Source: Zootoca vivipara
Lineage: Eukaryota
Length of the DNA stretch: 64,000 nt
Direction of reading: 5' to 3'
Assembly (NCBI RefSeq): GCF_963506605.1
Contig: NC_083280.1
Location: forward strand, 42,656,001 to 42,720,000
The position numbers and the translations under genes were made by a program. The notes under the pieces are model-generated. The model searched no databases. It was not told the origin of the DNA and saw only the letters and a program-made list of their open reading frames with translations. Positions 37,542 to 40,500 of the stretch are shown here, piece by piece; positions within the stretch are counted from its first letter, which is position 1, and each line of letters opens with the position of its first letter.

Positions 37542-40500
37542 TCACTTCTTGACCTTGCCCTGGGCAGCCACAGCTTCCATGGCCTTGCGGACAGTCTCCT
37601 CATCCCCAAGGAACTGCATGGGCTTGATGGGCTTCAGATTTTTGTCCAGCTCATAGACAATGGGGATTCCAGTGGGCAGGTTCAGTTCCATGATTGCTGC
37701 CTCAGACATTCCTGCAAAGAGCAAGGGGTGAATCACACCAGGAGCTTGGTTATAGTGCCCCTCCCAAGGACTGTTAGAAGGCAACCCTCTTGGGGCTTGC
37801 CTTTAGACTTGGCCAGGCTTGTGCTGCCTTGGGTGTCTCAAGTCACAAGCAGACTCACCTTCTAGATGCTTGACAATGCCTCGCAGACTGTTGCCATGTG
37901 CAGCAATGAGCACACGTTTGCCTTCCTTGATCTGAGGAACAATTTCCTCATTCCAGAAGGGCAGGGCCCGAGCGATGGTATCTTTCAGGCTCTCACATGT
38001 AGGCAACTGATCTTCAGTGAGGTCAGCATAGCGACGATCCTGCGGAAGAATATGGGGTGGCCTTTTAAGACACGATTTCTGCTTCCTGGAGATGCTCAAA
38101 GTCACCTACTTAGGGAGATCTACGAAGCACCTTCTCTTTGGAATAATTTCTTCTTTGGCCTGTGCTACCACATGCTCCAGCTGTGAACCATGCTCGCTGG
38201 TTGCCTGTGTTACTGGACATTTTAAAATAGACACTTTACAGGAGCCTATCTAAGCATTTGTTTTTCCTCTGGGCTCTGGTCAGTGGCCCTTCCTTACGTC
38301 TCATATCAACAGCATGCTAGGCCTTAAATAATAATTGTTTGCCCAAACCAACATTTTCTATTTGTCCTCCCAGGTGTGGTATGAAGCTATTAATGTTTGG
38401 AAAATCACAGAGCTGGAGGGTACCCTAAAGATAATCTAGTTCTTACTCACTGCAGCATCTGCAATATACGATACAACTGCAGTATCTCTGGCAAATGGCC
38501 ATCCGGTCTCTGCTTAAATGCCTCCAGGGTATGCAAACCAAGCACTTCCCCATAGCAATCTGTTGCAATGTCAAACGCACAGCTTGTGCTGTGCGAAGGT
38601 TTCTCCTAACATTTAGCCAAAATCCACTTCTCTGCAGTTTCTACACACTGCTTTGGCTCTTCAGCAACCTGTGCTATAGAAGTTGCCTCTTTTACAGCCA
38701 TTATCCCAATTTCATTGCCTATTGCACTTAACCTGATTGGCCTGTTTGATTTCATTGCCTATTTTCAATTTCATTACCTATTGTACTCAGCTGTTTTAGC
38801 TTTTCAGTGCCTGCAGATGGTACCGTGTTTCCCCCTTTTTAAGACACCGTCTTATTCTTTTTTTTACTCAAAAAAACACACGGTGTCTTATTTTCAGGGG
38901 ATGTCTTGTACCTTAAGGCCTCCTCGGAGGGGCCAGGCAGCTGGCTGGGGTGCTGCTGGGCACTCTGTGCGGCGCTGCAGCAGCAGCTGGGTCCAGGCAC
39001 CAAGGCAGCAGGCCGCTGGCTCAATGCTTCGTCCGGCGCTGCGGAGCGCTCCTCTCTGCAGCTGCCGGTTCCGGTGGCAGGGCGGCAGGCAAAAAACCCA
39101 AACCAAAGAGGCCAGGCCGCTGCACTCCGCCCAGCGCTGCAGGGCGCTCCGAGCCCTCGGCGCTGCGGAGCGCTCCTCTTTGCAGCTGCCGGTTCCGGTG
39201 GCGGGGCGGCAGGCAAAAAAGAAAAAAAAGAGGCCAGGCCGCTGTGCTCCGCCTGGCGCTGCGGAGCGCTCCGCTCTGCAGCCGCCGGTTCCAGTGGCGG
39301 GGCGGCAGGCCGCCTCGGGCAGGCAAAAAAAGAGAGGCCAGGCTGCTGGCTCGGGCGCGCGGAGCACCCCGAGCCTCTGAGAGCCAGCAGGACGAGGAGG
39401 AGGCTCGCCGGGTCGTCGCCCAGCAGCGCGCGCGGAGCGCCCCGAGCCTCTGAGAGCCAGCAGGACGAAGAGGAGGCTTGCCGGGTCGTCGCCCAGCAGC
39501 GCGCGCGGAGCGCCCCGAGCCTCTGAGAGCCAGCAGGACGAGGAGGAGGCTTGCCGGGTCGTCGCCCAGCAGCGCGCGCGGAGCGCCCCGAGCCTCTGAG
39601 AGCCAGCAGGACGAGGAGGAGGCTTGCCGGGTCGTCGCCCAGCAGCGCGCGCGGAGCGCCCCGAGCCTCTGAGAGCCAACAGGACGAGGAGGAGGCTTGC
39701 CGGGTCGTTGCCCAGCAGCGCGCGCGGAGCGCCCCGCGCCTCCGGCAGCCAGCAGCAGCAACAACAATCCCAGAGGCAAGCCTCCTCCTCGTCCTGCTGG
39801 CTCTCAGAGGCTCGGGGCGCTCCGCGCGCGCTGCTGGGCGACTACCCGGCAAGCCTCCTCCTCGTCCTGCTGGCTCTCAGAGGCTCGGGGTGCTCCGCGC
39901 GCGCTGCTGGGCGACGACCCGGCAAGCCTCCTCCTCGTCCTGCTGGCTCTCAGAGGCTTGGGGCGCTCCGCGCGCGCTGCTGGGCGACGACCCGGCAAGC
40001 CTCCTCCTCGTCCTGCTGGCTCTCAGAGGCTCGGGGTGCTCCGCGCGCCCGAGCCAGCAGCCTGGCCTCTCTTTTTTTGCCTGCCCGAGGCGGCCTGCCG
40101 CCCCGCCACTGGAACCGGCGGCTTGCTCGCAGAGGCTCGGGGTGCTCCGCGCGCACTGCTGGATGCCGACCTGGCAAGCCGCCTCCTGCTCTTGCCGGCT
40201 CCCAGAGGCTCGGGGCACTGCTTTTCTATACTCTTGCCGCGGCCAGCGTGCTGGGTCCCGCTGGCTGGCTGGGGCACTCAGCGGTCTCGCTCCTCGGAGG
40301 TATGGCTTATTTTCAGGGTATGGCTTTTATTTCCTAAACGCTTAAAATCCTGCTATGGCTTATATAATGACTACGTCTTAAAATAGGGGAAACACGGTAT
40401 TATAATCCACACTAATGTGATCGGATGAAACCAAGCCTGTGATCTGACCATCTCACATGGTAAAACCATTAACAAACATGTTGTTCTATAGATGGAAGAT

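What the first reader, a model, noticed from the sequence alone, without database searches (positions are those of the whole stretch)
38821..40399. Foldback-like transposon with opposing 73-bp minisatellite arrays forming a ~350-bp inverted repeat in PGAM1 intron 2
Seen: TA|CCGTGTTTCCCC...GGGGAAACACGG|TA termini enclose (i) three degenerate ~100-125-bp repeats (39035, 39159, 39255), (ii) five head-to-tail 73-bp units, (iii) a ~40-nt spacer containing CAG/CAA triplets, and (iv) ~3.7 inverted units plus an inverted copy of the upstream 80 bp. 39775-40123 is a near-perfect reverse complement of ~39280-39628, very GC-rich with almost no CpG decay. Established: CCGT/TA ends fit Tc2/pogo-type elements, while internally repetitive inverted arms recall Foldback elements. 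Inference: a young non-autonomous family that amplifies its own minisatellite. In the highly expressed PGAM1 pre-mRNA it would form a long dsRNA in several registers (ADAR/Dicer substrate), and in DNA a cruciform or fragile site. Best candidate for something undescribed in this window.
Basis: partly seen in the sequence, partly recalled or inferred. Interest (0 to 1): 0.7.

Follow-up and report, generated by a model that had tools for sequence, protein, structure and literature searches.

The report
Jumping DNA with mirrored growing repeats
A young 1.6-kb non-coding jumping element sits in an intron of a lizard sugar-metabolism gene, and one sub-lineage of it gained a long internal mirror-image stretch, likely through a DNA-copying error, together with a 73-base repeat that differs in number between copies; it is a tidy case of known processes and likely does nothing for the host.

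Summary
The structure is real: 5.5 direct and 3.8 inverted 73-bp units, 349-nt arms 99% complementary. Three identical copies lie on three chromosomes with unrelated flanks, so it is no assembly artefact. It is not a Foldback: the arms are internal and the terminal repeats are 23 bp with TA duplications. It is a non-autonomous pogo element of the Passer type. A likely helper (431-aa DD35D transposase, intact in 8 of 8 copies fetched) shares its ends only. Of 67 complete spacer-bearing copies, 54 have at most one unit core per side; 13 carry the long inversion and are the only places with the array. The junction points to one double template switch with 3-nt microhomology. Arrays then changed faster than flanking bases, and the spacer is flipped in some copies. 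One other sample has the empty site. Whether the palindrome caused the minisatellite is open: one origin only, and tandem repeats are common in this element group without it (15 of 38). RNA editing could not be assessed.

The parts
38821..38822 (.). TA target-site duplication (left)
   Evidence: empty allele has a single TA
38823..38845 (+). 23-bp terminal inverted repeat; this end resembles the helper's 3' end (88% over 86 nt)
39034..39354 (+). three degenerate ~96-124-bp GC-rich repeats; their number varies among relatives
39355..39755 (+). left array, 5 full 73-bp units plus a 36-nt partial unit
39756..39774 (.). central spacer; inverted in 3 of 13 long-inversion copies and 2 of 54 simple copies
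39775..40048 (-). right array, 3 full inverted units plus a 55-nt truncated inner unit
40049..40123 (-). inverted copy of 39280-39354, inferred product of the template switch; ends in a 3-nt microhomology
40124..40227 (-). remnant of the ancestral right arm: last ~31 nt of the parental inverted unit plus a diverged unit (about 82%)
40375..40397 (-). 23-bp terminal inverted repeat; this end resembles the helper's 5' end (78% over 102 nt)
40398..40399 (.). TA target-site duplication (right)
38040..40905 (-). host intron 2 of the phosphoglycerate mutase gene (PGAM1 label recalled)

Best explanation
This is a young non-autonomous pogo (Passer-type) DNA transposon, likely moved by a resident DD35D transposase, whose sub-lineage likely gained its long internal inverted repeat in one double template switch and then likely grew a 73-bp minisatellite by ordinary slippage or unequal exchange, with no likely role for the host. 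Steps: (1) Shown: the common form has one 73-bp unit and a partial unit on each side of a short spacer, giving ~100-nt inverted arms. (2) Inferred: DNA synthesis through the right arm folded back on the left arm, copied a unit and 75 nt beyond it, and returned to the right arm at a 3-nt microhomology. (3) Inferred: the 23-28-nt direct repeat at the start of the unit and of the partial unit seeded duplication; arrays then grew and shrank in both arms, with occasional exchange between arms that flips the spacer. (4) Shown: the resulting forms were copied to 13 sites; the PGAM intron holds one of three identical copies, and one other sample lacks it.
For: Family: 518 exact hits to the left end, 0 for the reversed control; TA on both sides in 62 of 67 complete copies. 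Helper: 8 of 8 fetched copies of one cluster have an intact 431-aa frame, TA flanks and 35 residues between the last two aspartates; DDE_1 and HTH_Tnp_Tc5; TIR 22 of 23 identical, subterminal 88% and 78%, no interior match. Series: 54 of 67 copies have at most one unit core per side; 13 have 1-7 left and 2-6 right; all 55 exact unit-unit junction hits fall in those 13 loci. One origin: 12 loci share the junction, the 13th lost it by deletion; a marker base is A in 13 of 13 derived and G in 14 of 14 simple copies that carry the motif; 10 simple copies carry the parent-type right unit whose end survives beyond the junction, with GCT shared by both templates. Fast array change: L017 equals L001-3 outside the arrays but has 1/3 against 5/4 units; L005 and L009 likewise differ. 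Recent: three 100% identical copies; a 3,999-nt contig of run X5 joins both flanks without the element.
Against: The tree of 32 rows on array-free sequence did not recover the 13 derived copies as one clade (5 changes; 1 of 25 branches well supported; one origin not ruled out, not shown; the alignment is disturbed by variable upstream repeats). The helper link rests on end similarity; other related transposase families with less similar ends exist. The template switch is read from one junction; a break followed by synthesis-dependent repair would leave the same scar. Lack of host function is inferred, not tested.
Confidence: 0.75

Rival explanations
1. The long palindrome itself drives the minisatellite: the growing strand folds back on the opposite arm out of register and adds or converts whole units, so inversion and array are one process.
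For: Arrays occur in 13 of 13 long-inversion copies and 0 of 54 sister copies with the same 1.4-unit seed. The outer-unit marker (A at unit position 12) appears in inner units of the right arm in 6 of 13 copies (about three lineages) and in no left arm. A right-arm marker (C30T) sits in the innermost left unit of L013. Spacer flips: 3 of 13 against 2 of 54, Fisher p=0.047.
Against: One origin, so the association is a sample of one. The flip test ignores kinship: L005 and L009 are sisters, and a further simple copy (L149) is flipped but was left out as unresolved; either correction weakens it. C30T also occurs in a simple copy (L028), and several shared changes are at CpG sites. Repeats vary without long palindromes here: 15 of 38 sampled copies have tandem repeats of 30 bp or more and none has an inner inversion of 200 bp or more; the helper has a 158-bp repeat in 3.4 to 7.4 copies. 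Two-unit block duplications within one arm explain the A12 pattern too.
Confidence: 0.3
2. It is a Foldback element, or on its way to becoming one, with long repetitive arms that aid transposition.
For: Opposed arrays of variable length resemble Galileo and Tetris arms (PMC3573991, PMC4079207; passages read).
Against: Arms start about 460 nt from the left end and stop about 275 nt from the right end; TIRs are 23 bp. The unit shows no match to the helper's ends. The derived form is rarer than simple forms (13 of 67).
Confidence: 0.05
3. The insertion matters to the host: the predicted 348-bp duplex in the pre-mRNA is edited, diced or alters splicing of the glycolytic gene.
For: Predicted fold -969 kcal/mol for 861 nt, z = -70 against 20 shuffles; longest helix 348 pairs against 97 for a simple copy; CpG-rich 1.6-kb insert more than doubles the intron.
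Against: The insertion is recent and absent from at least one other sample; it lies 500-800 nt from both splice sites. Editing of an intronic duplex, if it occurs, is commonly without effect (own knowledge).
Confidence: 0.1
4. Assembly artefact (a palindrome made by read fold-back or mis-joining).
For: No long reads were examined. Short-read contigs cover the junction with only 30 letters on the shorter side, one under the tool's bar (records 2 and 9).
Against: Three identical copies on three chromosomes with unrelated flanks; 12 loci share the junction; arms differ by private changes.
Confidence: 0.02

Closest known systems
Passer (PasserB) family of the pogo superfamily (PMC7386202, PMC9976928; passages and supplement rows read)
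   Same: TA duplication, TIR under 30 bp starting CCGTG, helper of 431 aa with HTH_Tnp_Tc5, DDE_1 and DD35D, 3.1-3.7 kb. The crocodile PasserB row lists 431 aa and a TIR with the same first 12 bases; by eye its first ~85 bases are about 80% like the element's left end.
   Different: The element has no transposase and an unrelated GC-rich interior. The squamate rows shown (first places only) have CCGTA ends; no row seen describes this non-autonomous family.
Galileo and Tetris Foldback-like elements of Drosophila (PMC3573991, PMC4168063, PMC4079207; passages read)
   Same: Inverted arms lengthened by recruiting neighbouring sequence; tandem repeats whose number differs between the two arms; slippage and template switching in gap repair invoked.
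   Different: There the arms are the terminal repeats and hold transposase sites; here they are internal and the termini are short.
Minisatellites born in transposons from short flanking direct repeats (Haber and Louis model, as reviewed in PMC6947457; passages read)
   Same: A short direct repeat flanks the future unit; duplication, then expansion; dispersal by the element.
   Different: Here the seed is 23-28 nt, the array arises in two opposed arms, and parent and derived forms coexist in one genome.
Orphan non-autonomous Tc1/mariner-type families of Anolis (PMC3014272; passages read)
   Same: Lizard, TA duplication, young, structurally diverse, no similarity to an autonomous copy beyond the ends.
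   Different: That paper has no occurrence of 'minisatellite', 'palindrom' or 'pogo' in its main text; here a likely helper is found.

Membership tests
Passer (pogo), non-autonomous | TA target-site duplication | tested here: met
   Window and 62 of 67 copies; empty allele with one TA
Passer (pogo), non-autonomous | Short TIR (<30 bp), CCGT end | tested here: met
   23 bp, CCGTG; same start as PasserB rows
Passer (pogo), non-autonomous | Partner transposase of 400-500 aa with HTH_Tnp_Tc5, DDE_1 and DD35D | tested here: met
   Met by the helper, 8 of 8 copies, not by the element itself, which has one 187-aa low-complexity frame starting in the flank
Passer (pogo), non-autonomous | Placement in the Passer clade on a transposase tree | not tested
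   No reference set was aligned; PasserB likeness is by eye from supplement rows
Passer (pogo), non-autonomous | Mobilisation by that transposase | not testable with these tools
   Inferred from shared ends and recent copies
Foldback | Long inverted repeats at the termini | tested here: not met
   TIR 23 bp; long arms internal
Foldback | Arms built of tandem repeats of variable number | tested here: met
   True of the internal arms in 13 of 67 copies
Foldback | Mutator- or P-type mobilisation (most described cases, PMC4079207, PMC3573991) | tested here: not met
   TA duplication and pogo-type ends
Catalogued Dfam/Repbase family | Match to a deposited consensus | not testable with these tools
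   No such library is held; Rfam has no match

The most novel reading that the evidence does not exclude
A template-switch palindrome inside a transposon is itself the engine of minisatellite birth: out-of-register fold-back between the arms adds 73-bp units and carries markers across, and this genome holds the whole series, parent, junction and 11 different array layouts at 13 sites, as a natural experiment.
Probability: 0.3. Interest if true: 0.55.

Novelty: new variant of a known kind. Interest (0 to 1): 0.33.

Why it matters
The parts are known: non-autonomous pogo elements, minisatellites inside transposons, and arms lengthened by template switching. What is useful is the complete series in one genome: 54 copies with the seed, 13 with inversion and array, a readable junction, and a likely intact helper. 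It lets one ask whether a palindrome speeds the birth and turnover of a minisatellite, with matched controls. The helper (near-identical intact copies) is also a candidate active Passer transposase in a reptile. No host function is indicated.

Tried and rejected
Foldback label: rejected on arm position. Deletion derivative of the helper: rejected, only the ends match. Escaped satellite: all 55 exact unit-unit hits lie in the 13 elements (exact pattern, so diverged arrays could be missed). RNA family: none. Coding function: one 187-aa low-complexity frame, not pursued. Tree: unresolved; the one-clade test was not run. Presence in other samples: contigs of X1 and X3 enter the element by only 21-24 letters, under the bridging bar; X4 has no cover of the right flank. 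Earlier findings: none by sequence or words; 8 shown of 12 in this genome, none on this family. Literature: eight searches answered found no description of this family or of opposed internal arrays in a pogo element; most subscription journals, Dfam and Repbase are outside the library, and only the first places of the supplement tables were seen. Rows dropped: of 75 spacer hits, 10 (9 loci) had no TIR-to-TIR element and were left out of the 67; none shows more than one unit core per side; 2 of the 67 came from other searches. Of 40 sampled left-end hits, 2 had no right end.

Full report
Observation. The described anatomy is in the sequence. The terminal 12-mer occurs only at the two ends of the element. 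The arrays are 5.5 direct and 3.8 inverted copies of a 73-bp unit, and 39280-39628 pairs with 39775-40123 at 99% over 349 nt. GC is 68% and CpG observed/expected 0.85. The host is a four-exon phosphoglycerate mutase gene on the minus strand; intron 2 runs 38040-40905. The name PGAM1 is recalled. That the animal is a lizard comes from earlier AI notes on this genome and fits its size and contig set; I did not test it.

It is a transposon family, not an artefact. The 1,579-nt query matches three places at 100%, on C5, C7 and C17, each with different flanks and TA on both sides. The 25-nt left end has 518 exact hits and the reversed control none. A contig of run X5 matches the left flank up to 38822 and the right flank from 40396 in one piece, with a single TA: the site before insertion. 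Contigs of X1 and X3 enter the element by 21-24 letters, a weak hint of presence; X4 runs on into other sequence. So the empty site is shown in 1 of 4 samples laid on the left junction.

Superfamily and helper. A DDE_1 search gave 96 matches. One cluster of 8 had the same frame length; all 8 were fetched, and all are 3.08-3.72-kb elements with TA flanks, an intact 431-aa frame and 35 residues between the last two catalytic aspartates. Pfam gives DDE_1 and HTH_Tnp_Tc5. Two copies are identical over 3,081 nt. The window element shares 22 of 23 TIR bases with it, 88% over 86 nt at one end and 78% over 102 nt at the other, and nothing inside. PMC7386202 and PMC9976928 (passages and supplement rows read) define Passer by DD35D, TA and TIRs under 30 bp; their PasserB rows begin with the same CCGTGTTTCC, and the crocodile row lists 431 aa. 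I file the element as a non-autonomous Passer-type pogo element; tree placement was not tested and the helper link is inferred.

Not a Foldback. In Galileo and Tetris the long repetitive arms are the terminal repeats (PMC3573991, PMC4079207; passages). Here they start about 460 nt from one end and stop about 275 nt from the other. It works like them in one respect, arms that lengthen by recruiting neighbouring sequence and carry repeats of unequal number, but fails the defining feature.

The series. A 22-nt spacer pattern has 75 hits. With two copies from other searches, 67 complete elements were compared; 10 hits in 9 loci had no two ends and show no array. Of the 67, 54 have at most one unit core on each side, forming inner arms of roughly 100-160 nt. 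Thirteen have the long inversion, with 1-7 units left and 2-6 right, in 11 different layouts. All 55 exact unit-unit junction hits in the genome lie in these 13 loci. Twelve share one junction; L010 has a deletion there. A marker base separates 13 of 13 derived from 14 of 14 simple copies that carry the motif, and the inverted copy carries the derived base. The tree did not confirm one clade (5 changes, weak support, disturbed alignment).

How the inversion likely arose. Ten simple copies have a right-arm unit with two private changes; the derived copies keep the last ~31 nt of exactly that unit beyond the junction. Before it stands an inverted copy of the left unit and 75 nt upstream. The two templates share GCT at the junction. 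This is the scar expected of a double template switch: out along ~100 nt of inverted homology, back at a microhomology. The reading is inferred; template switching and slippage in gap repair after excision are invoked for Galileo (PMC4168063; passages).

How the array likely arose. The unit start is repeated 73 nt on as a 23-28-nt partial unit. The outer unit has A at position 12 and the partial unit G; inner left units have G in every copy, as expected of duplication between these short repeats, the model reviewed in PMC6947457 (passages). Arrays change faster than flanking bases: L017 has no difference from L001-3 in about 790 flanking nt but 1/3 against 5/4 units. The spacer is reversed in 3 of 13 derived and 2 of 54 simple copies, which shows exchange between arms in both forms.

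Does the palindrome drive the array? For: complete association (13 of 13, 0 of 54); outer-unit marker in inner right units of 6 of 13 copies and no left arm; one right-arm marker in a left unit; flips at p=0.047. Against: a single origin; the flip test falls with kinship or with the omitted flipped copy L149; the marker recurs in a simple copy; block duplication within an arm gives the same pattern; and repeats are common here without long inversions, in 15 of 38 position-ordered copies, none with an inner inversion of 200 nt or more, and in the helper itself (158-bp unit, 3.4-7.4 copies). I give it 0.3.

Host effect. The pre-mRNA strand is predicted to form a very stable duplex (348 pairs). 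No data here test editing or small RNAs (see Tried and rejected). A recent, unfixed insertion 500-800 nt from the splice sites is most likely neutral or slightly harmful (inference).

Novelty. Eight literature searches (listings and abstract starts seen) and passages of PMC3014272 showed no description of this family; Dfam, Repbase and most subscription journals could not be searched, and unseen supplement rows may hold it. The family is probably undescribed, its parts are known, and its layout is an uncommon variant. Interest 0.33.

Noticed in passing
L065, L066, L068-L070, L176-L178 (e.g. G000:C4:33911545-33914626): Eight intact, near-identical Passer-type autonomous elements (431 aa, DD35D) with their own 158-bp repeat of variable number upstream of the frame; a candidate active reptile transposase.
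   Followed up: partly
L062-L064, L067, L076-L078: Further related transposase families with similar but distinct ends (CCGTGTTTCTC...), several with long open frames: more than one Passer-like lineage is present.
   Followed up: no
window 38825, run X4: A 3,409-nt contig matches the left flank to 38825, then runs on for 959 letters, and the right flank has no cover in that run: possibly a third allele (deletion or other insert). Unexplained.
   Followed up: no
L081-L120: The 518 left-end hits belong to many non-autonomous subfamilies of 0.55-1.7 kb with different GC-rich interiors; 15 of 38 carry tandem repeats of about 113-130 bp or other periods, 9 of 38 an inner inversion of 60 nt or more.
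   Followed up: partly
L128, L133, L126 and kin: A subfamily with lengths 1,624, ~1,505 and ~1,387 nt, steps of about 119 nt: a second variable repeat without a long palindrome.
   Followed up: partly
L116, L154-L172 and kin: About 20 copies of a ~1,700-nt subfamily share the same spacer and a 163-nt inner inversion at about 90%, a likely older source of the central module.
   Followed up: no
L150 (G000:C10:39714000-39722000): Two spacer-bearing copies 2.5 kb apart in the same direction with three end motifs: a tandem or nested arrangement.
   Followed up: no
window 7001-8000, 17001-18000, 28001-30000, 35001-37000, 41001-42000, 47001-48000: Other CpG-rich patches away from the gene's first exon, probably further young insertions.
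   Followed up: no
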